Below, one piece after another: positions 1 to 8,522 of a stretch of 8,522 nt of DNA. Location of the stretch: positions 1-8,522 of the IMG/VR virus record IMGVR_UViG_2541047751_000016, one strand, 5' to 3'. The stretch comes from a virus. Lineage: Duplodnaviria > Heunggongvirae > Uroviricota > Caudoviricetes. Under the pieces are notes generated by a model that made no database searches, was not told where the DNA came from, and saw nothing but the letters and a program-made list of their open reading frames with translations. A program made the position numbers and the translations under genes. The number at the start of each line of letters is the position of its first letter. Position 1 is the stretch's first letter.

Positions 1-693
1 GAATGGCACGCTCTGGAAAAACGAGCACTGGCAGAAGGCTGGACACCATCGCGCTATCTTCTGACGCTATGCAATGAAGAACTCCTGTGGCGCGAGAGTG
101 AAAAACTGCGTCGTTATAAAAAGGAGGCCCGGTTGCCAGTTGCCAAAACGCTAAGCGAATACGACTTCAGTCAGGTGCCGGAACTGAATGGAGCTCAGTT
201 CCGGCAACTCTGTGAAACGACAGACTGGGTTGATGCAGGAGAAAACGTTCTGCTGTTCGGAGCCAGCGGGTTGGGGAAAAGCCATCTGGCGGCAGCGATC
301 GTGGATGGCGTAGTAGGCCAGGGCTACCGGGCCCGGTTCTACAGCGCAGGAGAGTTGTTGCAGGAACTACGTAAAGCCAGAGCGCAGTTGAAACTGAATG
401 AGCTGCTACTGAAACTGGATCGCTACCGGGTGATAGTGGTGGATGATCTTGGCTATGTCAAACGCGACAGCGCCGAAACGGGAGTACTGTTCGAGTTAAT
501 AGCGCATCGCTATGAACGTGGGAGCCTGGTGATAACCAGTAACCATCCGTTCAGCATGTGGGGCAGCATCTTCGTGGATGAGACTATGGCGGTGGCGGCG
601 GCAGACCGGCTGATCCATCACGGATATATGTTCGAACTGAAAGGTGAAAGCTACAGGAAAAAGACAGCGAAGGCAGTAACAAGCGCGACTTGA
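1..693 (+). CDS. istB: IstB-like AAA+ ATP-binding transposition helper of IS21 family (5'-truncated by window edge)
   Basis: Frame 1 is open from base 1 (EWHALEKRALAEGW...). Translation shows LPVAKTLSEYDF, Walker A GASGLGKSHLAAA, Walker B-like VIVVDDLGY, ITSNHPF and C-terminal DRLIHHGYMFELKGESYRKK, matching the IstB/DnaC-like family from memory. Confidence 0.9.
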   Translation, partial: EWHALEKRALAEGWTPSRYLLTLCNEELLWRESEKLRRYKKEARLPVAKTLSEYDFSQVPELNGAQFRQLCETTDWVDAGENVLLFGASGLGKSHLAAAIVDGVVGQGYRARFYSAGELLQELRKARAQLKLNELLLKLDRYRVIVVDDLGYVKRDSAETGVLFELIAHRYERGSLVITSNHPFSMWGSIFVDETMAVAAADRLIHHGYMFELKGESYRKKTAKAVTSAT

Positions 694-1561: not shown

Positions 1562-1591
1562 TGCTCTTCCATCCCCGTCTAATTGGCGGGG
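1562..1591 (+). promoter_or_regulatory. Candidate nut-like site B: boxA-like TGCTCTTCC followed by a 7-bp-stem pentaloop hairpin
   Basis: TGCTCTTCC at 1562-1570; hairpin CCCCGTC (1573-1579) / GGCGGGG (1585-1591) with one G-U wobble and loop TAATT (1580-1584). Sits 56 nt upstream of the N-like start codon. Confidence 0.3.
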
Positions 1592-1646
1592 AAGGAAACC
1601 ACTTTGTAATAAAAAAAATTCCAAAGTTGTTTCATCGGAGGTCAAC

Positions 1647-1946
1647 ATGACAGTAGTCATTACATATCTGGCTGACGATAACGCCAGAAATCGCCGCAGA
1701 GCACGCAGACAGGCTCAACGTGAACAGGCGATGCAAGAGCAGCGACTGGCGCGAAAAATTGCGCTAAAGCTCTCTGGTTGCGTCAGAGCAGACAAAGCAG
1801 CATCACTCGGAAGCCTTCTCTGCAAGAAGGCAGATGAAGTCGAGAGTAAACAGAATCGTATTTACTACCGCAAGCCACGCAGTGAAATGGGCGTGACTTG
1901 TGTTGGTCGCCAGAAAATGAAATTAGGCAGCAAACCACTTATTTGA
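1647..1946 (+). CDS. N: N-like transcription antitermination protein
   Basis: GGAGG at 1637-1641, ATG at 1647. N-terminal arginine-rich motif (DDNARNRRRARRQAQREQ) and C-terminus SKQNRIYYRKPRSEMGVTCVGRQKMKLGSKPLI closely resemble lambda N (ERKNQRTWYSKPGERGITCSGRQKIKGKSIPLI, from memory). First gene of the operon. Confidence 0.8.
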   Translation: MTVVITYLADDNARNRRRARRQAQREQAMQEQRLARKIALKLSGCVRADKAASLGSLLCKKADEVESKQNRIYYRKPRSEMGVTCVGRQKMKLGSKPLI

Positions 1947-2041: not shown

Positions 2042-2225
2042 TAAGAATCAATGGTGTGGACAATTCAAGCGATGCAATGGATGCAAGCTGCAATCGGAAT
2101 GCATGGTTAAGCCTGAAGAAATGTTTCCTGTAATGGAGGATGGGAAATATGTCGATAAATGGGCAATACGAACTACGGCAATGATTGCCAGAGAACTTGG
2201 TAAACTGAACAACAAGGCTGCCTGA
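2025..2225 (+). CDS. ral: Ral restriction-alleviation protein (anti-restriction against type I R-M)
   Basis: 66-aa product MTTTIDKNQWCGQFKRCNGCKLQSECMVKPEEMFPVMEDGKYVDKWAIRTTAMIARELGKLNNKAA is near-identical to lambda Ral as I remember it. Confidence 0.85.
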   Translation: MTTTIDKNQWCGQFKRCNGCKLQSECMVKPEEMFPVMEDGKYVDKWAIRTTAMIARELGKLNNKAA

Positions 2226-2244
2226 TGGTGGCCTTTATTTTCTT
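2214..2244 (+). terminator. Intrinsic-terminator-like hairpin after ral
   Basis: AAGGCTGCC (2214-2222) / GGTGGCCTT (2227-2235) stem with two wobble pairs, loop TGAT, then TATTTTCTTATTT. Shares GGCCTTTATTTT with the hairpin at 2874-2900. Confidence 0.5.
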
Positions 2245-3019: not shown

Positions 3020-3046
3020 GCCCTCCAGTGTGAGGGCCTTTTTATA
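3020..3046 (+). terminator. Intrinsic terminator upstream of the cIII-like gene
   Basis: Stem GCCCTC (3020-3025) / GAGGGC (3032-3037), loop CAGTGT, then CTTTTTATAT. Confidence 0.65.
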
Positions 3047-3109
3047 TGCATACCAATAACGCTTCACTCGAGGCGTTTTCGTTATGCAATCAAACAGAAG
3101 GAGCATCCT

Positions 3110-3384: not shown

Positions 3385-3673
3385 TAAGCGTGAAATATCG
3401 CAAATAATCGCAAGTTTTACTGATGAAGATTACGAGCGAATCAACAGTGAAGTTGATCGTCTCTGCAAACGTTGCGACCCAATAAGCGAAATGCTTCGCT
3501 CATATAAACCAGATGAACACACTAAGGACGCTATCGACTGGCTGGAAGATGATGACTGTAACTATCAGGAAAAAGCCGCTGAATGGTTCTGGGATGCAAT
3601 AACCGAAAGAGTTAAGGCTGAATATGCCTTCTCAATATTCAAACGCAGACACATTTTTGGAGAAGCTGCATGA
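3362..3673 (+). CDS. Hypothetical protein (103 aa) immediately upstream of recT
   Basis: AGGAG at 3353-3357; ATG at 3362 (or 3365). Stop overlaps the recT start (ATGA at 3670-3673). Acidic product with WLEDDDCNYQEKAAEWFWDAI. Occupies the gam position by synteny, with no similarity to Gam recognised. Confidence 0.65.
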   Translation: MMILTLNDKREISQIIASFTDEDYERINSEVDRLCKRCDPISEMLRSYKPDEHTKDAIDWLEDDDCNYQEKAAEWFWDAITERVKAEYAFSIFKRRHIFGEAA

Positions 3674-4581
3674 GCAATATCGTTGAATTCGTTAAACAGC
3701 AGGAGCAGTTATTCTGCGGAGCATTGACTGAACAGACGGTGACATGGGCTAAGGAAAGCCAGTTTGCAATTCAGTATTTCCAGAAAAATGATTACCTGGC
3801 TAAAACGGCACTGGCAAATCCAACCAGCGCACAGAACGCCATCATCAATGTTGCGGCGATCGGCATCACCTTAAACCCGGCTAGCAAACTGGCTTATCTG
3901 GTTCCGCGCGACGGCATGGTGTGCCTTGATATCAGTTATATGGGATTGCTCCATATTGCAATGGAGTCTGGTGTTATCTCATGGGGTCAGGCAAAACTTG
4001 TTCATGCTAACGATACCTATGAGTCAAACGGGCTTGATAAAGCACCAACCCATAAATACAACGCCTTCGGTGATCGTGGTGATATCGTTGGCGTTTACTG
4101 CACAGTTAAGACGCCAGCAGGTGATTATCTAACGGAAGAGATGAGTCTGGCTGAAATTGAGGCTGTAAGGAAAACAAGCAAGGCGGCATTCAGCGATAAA
4201 GGACCATGGGTAAATCACTGGAATGAGATGGCGCGAAAGACGGTCGTAAAGCGTGCAAGCAAGTATTGGCCTAAGGCATCACGTCTTGATAGTGCTATTC
4301 ACGTACTAAACGAAGAAGAAGGTGTGTGGACTGAACCAGTTATGCCGCACAAATCAGAGGAAGATATCCGCGAAGATGAACGGAAACGCCAGCAGGAAAT
4401 AATGGATAAAGTACAACTTCTTTGCGATGAAATGGCTCAGGCAGAAAACATGGATGATTTGAAGCGATATTTTGCAGAAGCATATCGCCTGACATCTGGA
4501 ATGAAATTGCAGCAGAACGTACAAGCCATTTACATAGAATGCAAAGCGAAACTGGAGGTTGCCAGTGAGCAAACTGTATGA
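3670..4581 (+). CDS. recT: RecT-family single-strand annealing protein (phage recombinase)
   Basis: GGAG at 3658-3661, ATG at 3670, 303 aa. Motif GPWVNHWNEMARKTVVKRASKYWP matches E. coli RecT GPWVTHWEEMAKKTAIRRLFKYLP (from memory). Carries an extra charged C-terminal tail of about 80 aa. Confidence 0.85.
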   Translation: MSNIVEFVKQQEQLFCGALTEQTVTWAKESQFAIQYFQKNDYLAKTALANPTSAQNAIINVAAIGITLNPASKLAYLVPRDGMVCLDISYMGLLHIAMESGVISWGQAKLVHANDTYESNGLDKAPTHKYNAFGDRGDIVGVYCTVKTPAGDYLTEEMSLAEIEAVRKTSKAAFSDKGPWVNHWNEMARKTVVKRASKYWPKASRLDSAIHVLNEEEGVWTEPVMPHKSEEDIREDERKRQQEIMDKVQLLCDEMAQAENMDDLKRYFAEAYRLTSGMKLQQNVQAIYIECKAKLEVASEQTV

Positions 4582-5832: not shown

Positions 5833-6311
5833 AACAAATGTCACTAATTGAGATGGATGGATTTCTGAAAGGTAAATGCATCCCAAGTGATTTAAAGGTT
5901 AACGAAACAAACGCTGAATACCTTGTCCGTAAGTTCGGTGAACTTGAATCAAAACTGGAAACGGCGTTGCGGGAGTGTAGTTCTGCTGGAATCACGATTG
6001 ATAACCTTGAGGCTAAATGCGCGAAGATGGCTGCTGAAAATACCTCACTTAAGCAATCTGAGAAGGAATTTAATGACTTTTGTCGTGAGGAGTTTAGCGA
6101 ATGGGAAGATGATGTTACTGAAACCCCAGCCACCGATGCTTTCCTGGCTGAAGTACGGGCGCAGGGGGTAGAGATGTACGCAGATAACCTCGACAACGGA
6201 GCAGACGACGCAGAACGAGGTGGTTTTGATGATGCCGTTAAGTTTCTACGCAGTGAAGCGTCTGGTGTACGTTTGTTCGCCGACCAGCTTCGCAAAGGAG
6301 GCAACCAGTGA
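5829..6311 (+). CDS. Coiled-coil protein, Ea22-like (paralog 1)
   Basis: ATG at 5829 (in-frame GTG at 5811 is an alternative). Coiled-coil-like N-terminal half and acidic C-terminal half. Family assignment from memory is tentative. Confidence 0.6.
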
Positions 6312-6793
6312 GCAAGATTGATTATCAGGCACTGCGTGAGGCGGCAGAACGTGCAATTACGGCAATGGAACGCCTGTTAATGTTGCCAGTTGATGATGAT
6401 CTGATAAGCGAACAGGAACTTAAAGATTACGGTGTGGATATTGATGCGCTCAACGCCTTCAAATTTCTGGCCGGACCAGAAACCGTGCTGGCGCTGCTGG
6501 ATGAACGGGAAAGAAACCAGCAATACATCAAATCCCGCGACCAGGAGAACGAGGAAATTGCGCTAACGGTAGGGAAGCTGCGCGTTGAGCTTGAAGCAGA
6601 AAAACAGCGGGCAAAAGTTCTATTTATGGAAAATGCTCGGCTTAAGTCAGGCATAGCCGGTCTGATACACCTCGGTATTCGATATGCAGATGTTGAGGTC
6701 ATGAAAATTGCTGGAGATGCCCAGCTTTCTACCCCATGCACTGACAGCATCATAAACAGCATTGCAACAGGCATTCGCATCAAAGGAGAGTGA
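6308..6793 (+). CDS. Ead/Ea22-like family protein (paralog 2)
   Basis: AGGAGG at 6296-6301, GTG at 6308 overlapping the upstream stop (GTGA). N-terminus [16 protein letters not shown]... resembles proteins annotated Ead/Ea22-like in enterobacterial prophages (from memory); coiled-coil segment LTVGKLRVELEAEKQRAKVLFMENARLK. Confidence 0.65.
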   Translation: MSKIDYQALREAAERAITAMERLLMLPVDDDLISEQELKDYGVDIDALNAFKFLAGPETVLALLDERERNQQYIKSRDQENEEIALTVGKLRVELEAEKQRAKVLFMENARLKSGIAGLIHLGIRYADVEVMKIAGDAQLSTPCTDSIINSIATGIRIKGE

Positions 6794-6794
6794 T

Positions 6795-6992
6795 ATGGAT
6801 AAAAACACCACTGCTTACTGGAATCTGTCACTTGATACCGAATGCCCAAAATGCGGTCACAATTTCGATCTGCTTTGTGATGCTGATTTCTGGGAGTTTT
6901 CTGGAGCTAAACAGGCATGTGAAGAAATAAAAGGTTACGAAACATGCTGTCCAGAATGTAACCATGAATTTAAAACAGATTTCGTGTATTGA
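6795..6992 (+). CDS. Small zinc-ribbon protein (two CxxC knuckles)
   Basis: AGGAG at 6784-6788, ATG at 6795, 65 aa. Contains CPKCGHNF and CPECNHEF, an internally duplicated knuckle typical of zinc-ribbon/rubredoxin-like folds. Confidence 0.7.
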   Translation: MDKNTTAYWNLSLDTECPKCGHNFDLLCDADFWEFSGAKQACEEIKGYETCCPECNHEFKTDFVY

Positions 6993-7002
6993 GGCATAAC
7001 AA

Positions 7003-7614
7003 ATGACCACTATTACCAGAGAACAGGCACAGAAAATTATTGAAGCAGCCGATGAGGTTATTAGTGCGCTGGCCGGAACTAATGAGGATGTTAACCCTGA
7101 TAGCAATGACATGCTACGTCTGTGGGATGACCTGAATGACCGTCACGCGCCCCCTGAAGTTGTGCGTGAGCTGGCACGAATTGCGCTGGCATCGCTGGGA
7201 GCAGAACCTGTAAGCCAAGCTTACAACTTGCCAGAATTAATCGAAGGCATGGAGGTTTCCATTGATGTAAGCACTTGTGATGCGGATTTAGGTAATCGCT
7301 ATTTCGGTACCGTCACCGAGGCGTTAGAACTTGATACTGCCAAGAATGGTTACATCCTCCTGGTTCAGGACGCAGAGCCAAACTTCGATGTAAATGGCAA
7401 CTCTCCGGTAACTCCGGATGGTTGGATAAGCTGTAGTGAGCGAATGCCCCCTCAAGATGATTGGATTTTAATTTATTCAAAGCACGGCGAGTATATGGCA
7501 GGACAGGTACAAGGGGAATACGTGGAGTTGAGCGACGGCACTTTATCGTGGTTAGGGAACGTCTTGTTCTGGATGCCGCTACCAGAACCTCCGCAGGAGG
7601 TTAACCGTGGCTAA
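7003..7614 (+). CDS. DUF551-domain phage protein
   Basis: GAGG at 6992-6995, ATG at 7003, 203 aa. C-terminal WISCSERMPPQDDWILIYSKHGEYMAGQ...LSWLGNVLFWMPLPEPP matches the DUF551 signature as I remember it. Confidence 0.8.
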   Translation: MTTITREQAQKIIEAADEVISALAGTNEDVNPDSNDMLRLWDDLNDRHAPPEVVRELARIALASLGAEPVSQAYNLPELIEGMEVSIDVSTCDADLGNRYFGTVTEALELDTAKNGYILLVQDAEPNFDVNGNSPVTPDGWISCSERMPPQDDWILIYSKHGEYMAGQVQGEYVELSDGTLSWLGNVLFWMPLPEPPQEVNRG

Positions 7615-7646
7615 CCTGCAACTTGCCGTCAAAGGTGAATAACAAT

Positions 7647-7672
7647 CCTCGCACTCGCGGGGATTTCTTTTA
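7647..7672 (+). terminator. Terminator-like hairpin (first of a tandem pair) after the DUF551 gene
   Basis: Stem CCTCGC (7647-7652) / GCGGGG (7657-7662) with one G-U wobble, loop ACTC, then ATTTCTTTTA. Confidence 0.45.
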
Positions 7673-7676
7673 TCTG

Positions 7677-7702
7677 AACTCGCTACGGCGAGTTTTGTTT
7701 TA
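7677..7702 (+). terminator. Intrinsic terminator (second of the tandem pair)
   Basis: Stem AACTCGC (7677-7683) / GCGAGTT (7688-7694), loop TACG, then TTGTTTTA. Confidence 0.65.
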
Positions 7703-7714
7703 TGGAGATGATAA

Positions 7715-7882
7715 ATGCACTTCCGAGTCACAGGTGAATGGAATGGAGAGCCATTCGACAGGGTTATCGAAGCAGAGGACATCAACGACTGCTATAACCA
7801 CTGGATGATATGGGCGCAGATAGCGCATGCAGACGTAACCAATATTCGAATTGAAGAACTGAAAGAACACCAAGACGCCTGA
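7715..7882 (+). CDS. Hypothetical small protein (55 aa), not in the supplied ORF track
   Basis: GGAG at 7704-7707, ATG at 7715. Product MHFRVTGEWNGEPFDRVIEAEDINDCYNHWMIWAQIAHADVTNIRIEELKEHQDA. Sits directly after the tandem terminators. Confidence 0.55.
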   Translation: MHFRVTGEWNGEPFDRVIEAEDINDCYNHWMIWAQIAHADVTNIRIEELKEHQDA

Positions 7883-7908
7883 TGGCGGTTTTTTATTGGA
7901 GACAAGAA

Positions 7909-8253
7909 ATGTCAGATTTGGCTATGAAGGTTTTGAAATGGCAATCAACTGGCGATGTCGGCATCAGTAGCGCAACTCTTGCCTCAATCGCATGTGGACT
8001 GAAAAAAAATATCTATGGTCATCACTTCGGCGCTCCACATGACGCAGCAGACTTCCGGCGATGCGTTGCACTTGTTGAGCAGATTCCAGAAATCAGAGAT
8101 TCATTCGACAAGGTTGCAAAGCGCGTTCCGGCATTCAAAGGCATCCTCAACGAATGGGATTCTCTCGTTGCTCTGTTGAAGTTTGAAATGAAGATACACG
8201 GAAACAAAGCACCAGAGACTTACAGAAGAATCAGCGAGCTACGCAAGGACTAA
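7909..8253 (+). CDS. Hypothetical protein (114 aa)
   Basis: GGAGA at 7898-7902, ATG at 7909. Product MSDLAMKVLKWQSTGDVGISSATLASIACGLKKNIYGHHFGAPHDAADFRRCVALVEQIPEIRDSF... No family recognised. Confidence 0.65.
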   Translation: MSDLAMKVLKWQSTGDVGISSATLASIACGLKKNIYGHHFGAPHDAADFRRCVALVEQIPEIRDSFDKVAKRVPAFKGILNEWDSLVALLKFEMKIHGNKAPETYRRISELRKD

Positions 8254-8290
8254 CGCCTCACACTCGATGAGGCCTGTACATATCTGATAG

Positions 8291-8316
8291 AGCCGCTATA
8301 TGGCGGTTTCTTTTTG
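8291..8316 (+). terminator. Terminator-like hairpin before the AlpA/Xis-like gene
   Basis: Stem AGCCGC (8291-8296) / GCGGTT (8303-8308) with one G-U wobble, loop TATATG, then TCTTTTTG. A second hairpin GCCTCA-N7-TGAGGC lies at 8255-8273. Confidence 0.4.
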
Positions 8317-8330
8317 CCTGGAGAATTAAG

Positions 8331-8522
8331 ATGACCGATACCAGCCTGATTCCTGAGAAAGAAGTGATGAACAAGCTCGGTGTTTCATCACGTCAGACAA
8401 TCTGGAACTATACCAAACGGCACGGATTTCCGAAGCCAGTCAGAACCCACCCCAAATCATACCTTCGTGAAGCTGTTGAAGGGTGGATTCTTAACGGTGG
8501 CGTTAATCAGAAATGCTCCTGA
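8331..8522 (+). CDS. AlpA-family phage transcriptional regulator / putative excisionase (Xis-like)
   Basis: GGAG at 8319-8322, ATG at 8331, 63 aa. EKEVMNKLGVSSRQTIWNYTKRHGFPKPVR...YLREAVEGWI fits the AlpA-type winged-HTH pattern. Its position at the distal end of the early operon matches xis in lambdoid phages. Confidence 0.7.
   Translation: MTDTSLIPEKEVMNKLGVSSRQTIWNYTKRHGFPKPVRTHPKSYLREAVEGWILNGGVNQKCS

What the first reader, a model, noticed from the sequence alone, without database searches (positions are those of the whole stretch)
7647..8316. Terminator-bracketed two-gene cassette next to the xis-like gene
Two tandem terminator hairpins (7647-7672, 7677-7702) follow the DUF551 gene. 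Then come a 55-aa gene and a 114-aa gene, each with its own Shine-Dalgarno, separated by a small GC hairpin plus T6 (7876-7894) that contains the first gene's stop codon. Further hairpins (8255-8273, 8291-8316) follow before the xis-like gene. An insulated small gene pair beside xis/int looks like an autonomously regulated accessory cassette; toxin-antitoxin, exclusion or other conflict functions are possibilities, but neither protein is one I can assign.
Basis: partly seen in the sequence, partly recalled or inferred. Interest (0 to 1): 0.6.

Follow-up and report, generated by a model that had tools for sequence, protein, structure and literature searches.

The report
Lambda-type tL4–orf55–ORF114–terminator segment before xis
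This is the already-described far end of a lambda-like prophage's early-left operon: two unrelated, independently swappable small genes of unknown function (lambda orf55 and phage 434 ORF114) lying between known terminators just before the excision gene, so it is ordinary rather than a new self-contained system.

Summary
The hairpins and both ORFs are real and lie at the stated coordinates. The layout is already on record. GenBank M60848 (phage 434) annotates t-L4, ORF55, ORF114, t'-I, xis and int. HK022 annotates tL4. Bloch et al. 2014 list the same three lambda hairpins as t3, t4 and t5. The 55-aa gene is lambda orf55 (92.7% identical), the last ORF of the exo-xis region. The 114-aa gene is 434 ORF114 (96.5% identical).

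The + strand is a pL-type operon that begins with an N-like antiterminator gene and carries seven intergenic terminators. No sigma-70-like promoter lies between the terminators and either gene, so autonomous regulation is not supported.

The two genes assort independently. Among 5,426 complete E. coli genomes, orf55 occurs in 2,198 and ORF114 in 915, but the two are adjacent in only 471. Lambda has orf55 alone and mEp234 has ORF114 alone. Their junctions are short terminator/T-run/Shine-Dalgarno repeats.

The ORF114 family is large (1,786 cluster representatives). It has no conserved neighbour and no terminator bracketing elsewhere. Its confidently predicted all-helical fold matches no solved structure.

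Best reading: these are N-antitermination-gated distal early genes, with terminators that shield xis and double as recombination joints. The functions of both proteins remain unknown.

The parts
1647..1946 (+). N-like antitermination protein gene at the head of the same (+) strand operon. This is context: it explains how downstream terminators are read through.
   Evidence: PHROG phrog_271 'anti-termination protein N-like', E=8e-36. A boxA-like UGCUCUU plus a strong hairpin at 1567-1597 lies upstream.
7003..7614 (+). DUF551 gene, the variable upstream neighbour.
   Evidence: Pfam PF04448 E=1e-11. In relatives the upstream gene is ea8.5 or something else, while homology resumes at about 7640.
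7644..7675 (+). Intrinsic terminator 1. It corresponds to 'tL4' of HK022 and 434 and to lambda 't3'.
   Evidence: 9-bp stem plus TCTTTTAT tail. -13.1 kcal/mol, z -5.0. Annotated as tL4 in X51962 and as t-L4 in M60848. Lambda t3 in PMC4195576 Table 4. In some relatives it is replaced by non-homologous hairpin+T-run variants.
7676..7705 (+). Intrinsic terminator 2 (lambda 't4'). It is the invariant 5' edge of the orf55 module.
   Evidence: 8-bp stem plus TGTTTTAT tail. -11.9 kcal/mol, z -4.2. PMC4195576 Table 4. Present in all 49 distinct upstream variants seen in 119 viral contigs; the main variation is U-A to U-G, which preserves pairing.
7698..7708 (+). T-run/Shine-Dalgarno joint TTTTATGGAGA. 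It is repeated at 7891-7902 (TTTTATTGGAGA) and is the junction used when orf55 is absent.
   Evidence: In mEp234 the sequence runs from terminator 2 straight into GGAGACAAGAAATG of ORF114.
7715..7882 (+). orf55: homologue of lambda orf55/lambdap35 and of 434 ORF55. Acidic, 55 aa, beta-beta-alpha-beta fold. Function unknown.
   Evidence: tblastn gives 92.7% identity to lambda 29121-29285. phrog_676 E=2.5e-38. AF2 pLDDT 90. pI 4.6. Listed as the last exo-xis ORF of lambda.
7876..7895 (+). Stop-codon hairpin plus T6 (lambda 't5'; annotated as a rho-independent terminator in HK140). It is weakened here to a 4-bp stem. It forms the left copy of the 26-nt imperfect direct repeat that flanks ORF114.
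   Evidence: Direct repeat 7873-7898 / 8291-8316, 77% identical. After this point sequences branch to ORF114, lambda xis or AlpA-type xis.
7909..8253 (+). ORF114: homologue of 434 ORF114 and HK022 gp32 (annotated 'N15 early protein homolog'). Basic, predicted seven-helix protein. Function unknown.
8255..8273 (+). Conserved hairpin without a T-run (GCCTCA-N7-TGAGGC) that travels with ORF114. Role unknown.
   Evidence: -8.7 kcal/mol, z -2.8. Conserved in 434, HK022, CE10 and mEp234.
8290..8317 (+). Intrinsic terminator 3. It belongs to the AlpA-type xis module and is the positional analogue of 434 t'-I.
   Evidence: 8-bp stem plus CTTTTT. -10.5 kcal/mol. Its right half plus the leader is identical to the sequence that follows orf55 directly in HK140. 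t'-I is annotated at the equivalent place in M60848.
8331..8522 (+). AlpA/HTH_17-type excisionase-like gene, the last gene of the operon.
   Evidence: phrog_66 'excisionase and transcriptional regulator' E=1.9e-8. Pfam AlpA matches below its cut-off. The homologue in mEp234 is annotated as similar to an excisionase.
8503..8522 (-). 3' end of a convergent integrase gene that overlaps the xis-like gene tail to tail. This is inferred by homology; the rest of the gene lies beyond the window.
   Evidence: In E212, mEp234 and HK140 the integrase is on the opposite strand and overlaps the xis-like gene by about 20 nt. The reverse complement of window 8503-8505 is TAA.

Best explanation
The segment is the promoter-distal end of the prophage's N-antiterminated early-left (pL-type) operon. 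It is the same arrangement that phage 434 carries as t-L4 / ORF55 / ORF114 / t'-I / xis.

It is not one cassette but two independent single-gene accessory modules:
- orf55, with its own upstream terminator and its stop-codon hairpin;
- ORF114, with a trailing hairpin.

These are stacked in front of the xis module, which brings its own terminator. None of the modules has a promoter.

Inferred mechanism: both genes and xis are expressed only when RNA polymerase that started at pL has been modified by the N-like protein and reads through the terminators. Unmodified or stray transcription stops at the tandem terminators (7644-7705) and again at 8290-8317. This keeps xis silent in the lysogen and gives the distal genes delayed-early timing.

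The terminator hairpin, T-run and GGAG leader sequences are also the short repeats at which the modules are gained and lost. This step is shown by sequence comparison.

The two proteins are soluble, non-essential early accessory proteins. Most probably they act on host proteins or on DNA metabolism during infection or induction (inferred). Their biochemical targets are unknown.
For: Identity with named features:
- M60848 annotates t-L4, ORF55, ORF114, t'-I, xis and int in this order.
- X51962 annotates tL4 at the position equivalent to 7644-7672.
- Lambda t3, t4 and t5 in PMC4195576 are the same three hairpins.
- orf55 is listed as the last exo-xis ORF and is described as transcribed from pL.

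Operon context:
- N-like gene, Ral, Nmad5, RecT, Gp157, Ea22-like and DUF551 genes all lie on the + strand.
- There are seven + strand terminators, all intergenic.

No promoter was found, and base composition is flat.

Module independence:
- orf55 is in 2,198 genomes, ORF114 in 915 and the intact orf55-ORF114 junction in 471 of 5,426 E. coli genomes.
- The direct orf55-to-lambda-xis junction is in 1,804 genomes, and the direct terminator-to-ORF114 junction in 681.
- Of 119 viral contigs with orf55, 95 have enough downstream sequence to assess, and ORF114 follows in 14 of them.

Joints:
- The six-phage alignment shows the branching right after each T-run.
- The mEp234 junction runs through TTTTAT(T)GGAGA.
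- A 26-nt imperfect direct repeat flanks ORF114.

ORF114 family elsewhere:
- There is no conserved partner: the largest neighbour cluster is in 8 of 80 loci.
- The median intergenic gap is -4 nt on both sides.
- Terminators occur upstream in 3 of 63 loci, downstream in 6 of 63 and on both sides in 0 of 63.

Hairpin structure is preserved across variants, and non-homologous hairpin+T-run replacements occupy the first position.
Against: - No experimental measurement of termination or read-through exists for this element in the sources I could read. The tL4 and t'I annotations and the t3-t5 list are sequence-based predictions.
- The pL promoter and operators were not identified in the window. An IS21-type fragment sits just upstream of the N-like gene, so this particular prophage may be defective.
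- Only sigma-70 consensus promoters were scanned.
- The hairpin at 7876-7894 is weak in this copy, and the one at 8255-8273 has no T-run, so not every hairpin need be a terminator.
- Covariation support is thin because the sequences are about 96% identical.
- The functions proposed for the proteins are inference only.
Confidence: 0.75

Rival explanations
1. Autonomous 'moron'-type accessory cassette. The terminators insulate a gene pair that has its own promoter and is expressed from the prophage, giving the lysogen an exclusion or defence function.
For: Terminators flank the genes. Presence is variable among close relatives. The location is a known hot spot for accessory genes next to xis/int.
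Against: No sigma-70-like promoter, even at 8/12 matches. Only 9-13 nt separate each T-run from the next Shine-Dalgarno. The genes run in the same direction as the operon. There is no GC anomaly and no PADLOC hit. ORF114 relatives elsewhere sit in tightly coupled early operons without terminators.
Confidence: 0.08
2. Two-gene toxin-antitoxin or other obligate two-component conflict system made of the acidic 55-aa protein and the basic 114-aa protein.
For: Two small adjacent co-oriented genes with opposite charge, pI 4.6 and 9.2. The short intergenic distance and a possible stop/start-region structure suggest coupling.
Against: The genes assort independently. Lambda and HK140 have orf55 only, and mEp234, 2851 and 1717 have ORF114 only. 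Only 471 of 2,198 orf55 genomes have the junction. ORF114 has no conserved neighbour in 80 loci. There is no TA, Pfam, NCBIfam or PADLOC match.
Confidence: 0.02
3. The hairpins are mainly evolutionary scars or recombination joints, or 3'-end stabilisers of upstream messages. On this view they have little regulatory effect, and transcription from pL is effectively uniform across the region.
For: Module boundaries coincide exactly with the hairpins and T-runs. The stop-codon hairpin is degraded in this copy. Because its stop codon sits in the loop, a terminating ribosome should hinder folding of the hairpin (inference).
Against: At the first position, non-homologous replacements are again GC hairpins followed by a T-run. 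Pairing is preserved at 93% across variants, against 37-55% in slid controls. The operon encodes an antiterminator, which has a role only if terminators act. Bloch et al. propose that another predicted exo-xis terminator (t2) could explain a drop in downstream mRNA.
Confidence: 0.12

Closest known systems
Phage 434 int-xis region (GenBank M60848): t-L4 / ORF55 / ORF114 / t'-I / xis / int
   Same: Same order of elements. ORF114 is 96.5% identical. The ORF55 DNA and the tandem hairpin region align almost base for base. The conserved hairpin after ORF114 is present. Terminators are annotated at the equivalent places.
   Different: In 434 the downstream module is the lambda-type xis/int. Its t'-I hairpin is GCCGC-ATCAAT-GCGGC, followed by TTGC-N6-TTGC, which I recognise from memory as the CII site of pI. 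Here the downstream module is an AlpA-type xis with a different terminator (8290-8317), no TTGC-N6-TTGC nearby and a convergent integrase.
Phage lambda exo-xis region distal end: ea8.5 / t3 / t4 / orf55 / t5 / xis
   Same: The tandem terminators, orf55 (92.7% aa identity) and the stop-codon hairpin are nearly identical. The region is described as transcribed from pL.
   Different: Lambda lacks ORF114, so orf55's hairpin abuts the xis leader directly. The upstream gene is ea8.5, not DUF551.
Phages mEp234, 2851, 1717 and HK140 (same AlpA-type xis with convergent int)
   Same: Identical xis module and terminator 3. mEp234, 2851 and 1717 carry ORF114 behind the tandem terminators, and HK140 carries orf55.
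   Different: Each has only one of the two genes. The full combination seen in the window occurs in phage E212, in six other phage records and in 43 E. coli genomes at >=80% coverage.
Morons of lambdoid phages (promoter-gene-terminator insertions; concept of Hendrix and colleagues, recalled from memory)
   Same: Single accessory genes inserted between conserved neighbours and bounded by terminator-like sequences. Presence varies among relatives.
   Different: No promoter of its own and no compositional difference from the flanks. Expression is expected only by read-through from pL.
T7 Gp2 (RNA polymerase inhibitor), proposed analogue of lambda Orf55 (PMC8614690)

Membership tests
Lambda orf55 / PHROG 676 | Full-length sequence homology to lambda orf55 (lambdap35) | tested here: met
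   tblastn 92.7% identity over 55/55 aa, E=3e-28. phrog_676 E=2.5e-38, positions 1-55 of 55.
Lambda orf55 / PHROG 676 | Position: last small ORF(s) of the exo-xis region, behind the tandem hairpins and upstream of xis | tested here: met
   Alignment with lambda, 434, HK022, HK140 and CE10.
Phage 434 ORF114 / PHROG 1229 | Full-length sequence homology | tested here: met
   96.5% identity to 434 ORF114. phrog_1229 E=3.7e-51, positions 1-113 of 116.
Rho-independent (intrinsic) terminator | GC-rich stem-loop immediately followed by a T-run on the transcribed strand | tested here: met
   Met for 7644-7675, 7676-7705 and 8290-8317. Marginal for 7876-7895, which has a 4-bp stem plus T6. Not met for 8255-8273, which has no T-run.
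Rho-independent (intrinsic) terminator | Measured transcript 3' ends or termination in vitro or in vivo | not testable with these tools
   Only sequence-based annotations and predictions were found.
N-antiterminated pL operon (lambdoid) | N-family antiterminator gene plus a nut-like site at the head of the same transcription unit | tested here: inconclusive
   The N-like gene is found (phrog_271, E=8e-36). A boxA-like UGCUCUU and a strong hairpin lie upstream. The nut site was not validated and pL was not located.
Moron (autonomous promoter-gene-terminator insert) | Own promoter upstream of the gene | tested here: not met
   No sigma-70-like site at the standard threshold or at a relaxed 8/12 match. 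Other sigma factors were not scanned.
Moron (autonomous promoter-gene-terminator insert) | Base composition distinct from the flanks | tested here: not met
   GC 0.455-0.47 for windows from 7600 to the end, with no step at the module boundaries.
Moron (autonomous promoter-gene-terminator insert) | Insertion between genes that are adjacent in relatives, with a downstream terminator | tested here: met
   ORF114 lies between orf55 and xis, which are adjacent in lambda and HK140. It is flanked by a 26-nt repeat that contains the hairpin.
Type II toxin-antitoxin pair | Obligate co-occurrence of the two genes | tested here: not met
   Genome counts of 2,198, 915 and 471. Single-gene architectures are common. 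No conserved neighbour.
Type II toxin-antitoxin pair | Recognisable toxin or antitoxin domain | tested here: not met
T7 Gp2-like RNAP inhibitor (for orf55) | Specific structural similarity to Gp2, including its functional arginines | tested here: inconclusive

The most novel reading that the evidence does not exclude
The xis-proximal end of lambdoid pL operons may work as a slot for exchanging single-gene cassettes. On this reading, terminator/T-run/GGAG joints let promoterless effector genes be swapped in and out. The two effectors would be: (a) orf55, a small acidic protein whose generic small alpha/beta fold is also seen in several phage inhibitor proteins; (b) ORF114, a member of a very large uncharacterised phage family with no match among solved structures and an invariant Ser-Ser ... 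P-x-D-x-x-D-x-x-R-C signature. Either could be a new host-takeover or counter-defence factor whose dose is set by antitermination.
Probability: 0.2. Interest if true: 0.45.

Novelty: already known. Interest (0 to 1): 0.15.

Why it matters
As a genomic feature it adds nothing new. The layout has been in GenBank under the names t-L4, ORF55, ORF114 and t'-I (record M60848), and the lambda hairpins were tabulated in 2014.

Two things have some residual value. First, the comparison gives a clean example of how lambdoid mosaicism works at single-gene resolution, through repeats of terminator, T-run and Shine-Dalgarno sequence. Second, ORF114 represents a large family (at least 1,786 clusters at 50% identity) that spans several bacterial phyla. 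It has no Pfam model, no match to any solved structure and no known function. orf55 likewise remains one of lambda's untested genes; it was not targetable in the 2023 CRISPRi essentiality map. Anyone screening for phage early effectors could reasonably include both.

Tried and rejected
- Rfam scan of the whole window at E<=1 found no RNA family in the region. The only hit was a chance ToxT thermometer match at 2590-2668.
- Pfam, NCBIfam and PADLOC gave nothing for either protein.
- PDB sequence searches, with single sequences and with a 48-member profile, gave nothing significant.
- Pfam scans of 48 diverse ORF114 relatives and of 10 longer proteins containing the domain gave only scattered sub-threshold noise or nothing.
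- The AFDB Foldseek library was unavailable.
- A neighbourhood analysis looking for a conserved partner of ORF114 found none.
- Literature searches for tL4, ORF114, PHROG ids and protein accessions found no functional study.
- The lambda ribosome-profiling paper (Liu et al. 2013) is not held in the library.
- The toxin-antitoxin and moron readings were considered and rejected for the reasons given under the rival explanations.
- The first attempt at search for related loci, with the broad alignment, failed because no stretch was conserved enough.

Full report
**What is in the sequence**

The + strand of the window is one long co-directional gene array:
- an N-like antitermination gene (1647-1946);
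- ral (2025-2225);
- an Nmad5-domain gene;
- RecT (3670-4581);
- a Gp157-family gene, annotated Mu Gam-like by PHROGs;
- several unknown genes;
- an Ea22-like gene (6308-6793);
- a DUF551 gene (7003-7614);
- the 55-aa ORF (7715-7882);
- the 114-aa ORF (7909-8253);
- an AlpA/HTH-type excisionase-like ORF (8331-8522).

This is the early-left (pL-type) operon of a lambdoid prophage, read in its direction of transcription.

The consensus scan finds seven terminator-like sites on the + strand, all intergenic. Three are in the finding, with stems at 7644-7665, 7676-7695 and 8290-8309. Folding gives -13.1 kcal/mol (z -5.0), -11.9 (z -4.2) and -10.5 (z -1.2). The hairpin that holds the stop codon of the first gene (7876-7894) is only 4 bp plus T6 in this copy. 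The hairpin at 8255-8273 is real (z -2.8) but has no T-run.

**It is a named, previously described arrangement**

- A megablast of 7600-8522 hits 406 phage records and 2,948 of 5,426 complete E. coli genomes.
- GenBank M60848 (phage 434) annotates, in this order, terminator t-L4, ORF55, ORF114, terminator t'-I, xis and int.
- X51962 (HK022) annotates a 'tL4 terminator' at the position equivalent to 7644-7672.
- The complete HK022 record notes gp33 as an 'undocumented homolog present in lambda' and gp32 as an 'N15 early protein homolog'.
- The 55-aa protein is 92.7% identical to lambda orf55 (lambda 29121-29285). The 114-aa protein is 96.5% identical to 434 ORF114.
- Bloch et al. 2014 (PMC4195576, Table 4) list the predicted lambda terminators t3, t4 and t5. 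Their sequences are the two tandem hairpins and the stop-codon hairpin.
- Bloch et al. 2013 (PMC3824215) list orf55 as the last of the seven exo-xis ORFs and describe the region as transcribed from pL.
- Donaldson 2021 (PMC8614690) modelled Orf55 and speculated that it acts as a T7 Gp2-like modulator of RNA polymerase.
- HK140 annotates the orf55 stop-codon hairpin as a rho-independent terminator.

**Not autonomous**

No sigma-70-like promoter is found between the terminators and either gene. This holds at the tool's threshold and at a relaxed 8/12 match in 7540-7730, 7840-7930 and 8230-8345. Each Shine-Dalgarno sequence (GGAG) follows the preceding T-run within a few bases. GC content shows no step at the module boundaries.

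The operon encodes an N-like antiterminator. About 50-85 nt upstream of that gene lie a boxA-like UGCUCUU and a strong hairpin (-21 kcal/mol, z -4.5). The simplest reading is standard lambdoid logic, which is established knowledge for lambda N and pL. Polymerase modified at nutL reads through all the terminators, and unmodified polymerase does not.

In relatives with this xis type (mEp234, HK140, E212) the integrase is convergent and overlaps the xis-like gene tail to tail. The reverse complement of window 8503-8505 is the matching TAA stop. The xis-like gene is therefore the last gene of the operon. The three terminators in the 700 bp before it would shield it from stray transcription. This last step is inference.

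**Not a pair**

Counts among 5,426 complete E. coli genomes, each requiring at least 80% coverage of the query:

| Query | Genomes |
|---|---|
| orf55 | 2,198 |
| ORF114 | 915 |
| orf55-ORF114 junction | 471 |
| orf55 directly followed by lambda xis | 1,804 |
| tandem terminators directly followed by ORF114 | 681 |

Of 119 viral contigs that carry orf55, 95 have enough downstream sequence to assess. ORF114 follows in 14 of these, lambda-type xis follows directly in 55, and AlpA-type xis follows directly in 9. The upstream gene is ea8.5 in 16 contigs, DUF551 in 3 and something else in most.

The six-way alignment shows the following:
- Homology begins at about 7640, whatever the upstream gene.
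- Homology runs unbroken through both hairpins, orf55 and its stop hairpin.
- Right after the T-run it branches into ORF114, lambda xis or AlpA xis.

In mEp234 the second terminator runs straight into GGAGACAAGAAATG of ORF114. That junction is the TTTTAT(T)GGAGA sequence, which is repeated at 7698-7708 and 7891-7902 in the window.

ORF114 is flanked by a 26-nt imperfect direct repeat that contains the hairpin (7873-7898 and 8291-8316, 77% identical). The right half of the 8290-8317 terminator plus its leader is identical to what follows orf55 directly in HK140.

So the 'cassette' is two stacked single-gene modules. The terminator/T-run/SD sequences act as their recombination joints.

**Are the hairpins under selection?**

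The proximal hairpin is present in all 49 distinct upstream variants among the 119 contigs. Its main variation is U-A to U-G, which preserves pairing.

The distal hairpin position is occupied by several versions. Some are unrelated in sequence, for example AACCCGC-CGAG-TGCGGGTT and the 434 version CCTCG...CGAGG. Most are again GC hairpins that run into ATTTCTTTT. A minority of contigs lack the distal hairpin.

On 21 distinct variants, 93% of cells form pairs, against 37-55% when the 3' partners are slid. Only one pair shows double changes. This is modest support for a conserved structure. It does not prove function.

**The proteins**

orf55:
- acidic, pI 4.6;
- AF2 model with pLDDT 90 and a beta-beta-alpha-beta fold;

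The Gp2 resemblance is therefore generic rather than specific.

ORF114:
- basic, pI 9.2;
- AF2 model with pLDDT 93.9 and seven helices;
- only uncharacterised phage proteins in BFVD;
- no Pfam, NCBIfam, PADLOC or PDB-profile hit.

The ORF114 family is large: 1,786 representatives at E<=1e-3 in the 50%-clustered library. It occurs in Vibrio, Yersinia, Mannheimia, Arthrobacter and Clavibacter phages. Family-wide invariant residues are G18, S20, P43, D45, D48, R51, C52 and W83, with W11, S21, L55, P60 and Y105 nearly invariant.

In 80 diverse viral loci the ORF114 family shows the following:
- It has no conserved neighbour: the largest neighbour cluster is in 8 loci.
- The recurrent neighbour genes are almost all co-directional with it.
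- The median gap to the flanking genes is -4 nt on both sides.
- It is almost never next to terminators (3 of 63 upstream, 6 of 63 downstream, 0 of 63 on both sides).

In some loci it lies between a Mu B-like transposition protein and a Mor-like activator. In PY54 it lies among exonuclease, methyltransferase and Lar-like genes. It is thus a stand-alone accessory gene of the early region, and the terminator bracketing is a property of the lambda xis-proximal site rather than of the gene.

**Verdict**

'Accessory, terminator-flanked and unassigned' holds. 'Autonomous two-gene conflict cassette' does not.
- The feature is already known at the level of anatomy and naming.
- What remains open is the biochemical role of orf55 and ORF114, and direct measurement of termination at tL4 and at the t'I-like sites.
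- Interest is low. The one item worth carrying forward is the large uncharacterised ORF114 family.

Noticed in passing
window 133-693 and 760-984: A partial IstB-like IS21-family ATPase ORF (Pfam PF01695, E=1.5e-52, profile positions 58-235 of 238) lies next to a 74-aa ORF that matches only positions 50-122 of the 122-position phrog_6534. Both lie just upstream of the N-like gene. This suggests an IS insertion in or near the immunity/pL region, so the prophage may be defective.
   Followed up: partly
window 1562-1597: A boxA-like UGCUCUU is followed by a strong hairpin (-21 kcal/mol, z -4.5), 50-85 nt upstream of the N-like gene. This is a candidate nutL site.
   Followed up: partly
window 2214-2235, 2874-2893, 3020-3037, 3058-3077: A cluster of four + strand terminator-like hairpins lies after ral and the Nmad5 gene. 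The ral terminator carries its TGA stop in the hairpin loop (GCCTGATGG), the same design as the orf55 stop hairpin (CGCCTGATGGCGG).
   Followed up: partly
window 7873-7898 and 8291-8316: A 26-nt imperfect direct repeat (77% identical), made of hairpin plus T-run, flanks the 418-bp ORF114 insert. It looks like the recombination joint for gain or loss of the gene.
   Followed up: yes
window 8255-8273: A perfect 6-bp inverted repeat, GCCTCA-N7-TGAGGC, lies directly after the ORF114 stop. It is conserved in 434, HK022, CE10 and mEp234 but has no T-run, and its role is unknown. It could be an RNA 3' stabiliser, a processing site or a protein-binding site.
   Followed up: partly
window 8503-8522 (- strand): By homology with E212, mEp234 and HK140, a convergent integrase gene ends here and overlaps the xis-like gene by about 20 nt. 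Antiterminated pL transcripts would then run antisense into int.
   Followed up: partly
window 7909-8253 and relatives (alignment A5): The ORF114 family is very widespread (1,786 clusters at 50% identity). It has a conserved G-x-S-S ... P-x-D-x-x-D-x-x-R-C ... W signature, no Pfam model and no match to any solved structure. Some relatives are 190-350 aa proteins in which the domain is joined to N- or C-terminal parts that also lack Pfam matches.
   Followed up: partly
window 6762-6992: A 76-aa ORF with two CxxC pairs (a zinc-ribbon-like protein, phrog_4173) lies between the Ea22-like and DUF551 genes. Its position recalls the zinc-finger protein Ea8.5 of lambda, but no homology was tested.
   Followed up: no
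window 7882-7884: An in-frame ATG overlaps the orf55 TGA stop (TGATG). It would give a 123-aa form of ORF114, and many automatic gene calls use it. The extension is encoded by the hairpin and T-run and is not conserved in the family, so 7909 is the likely start.
   Followed up: partly
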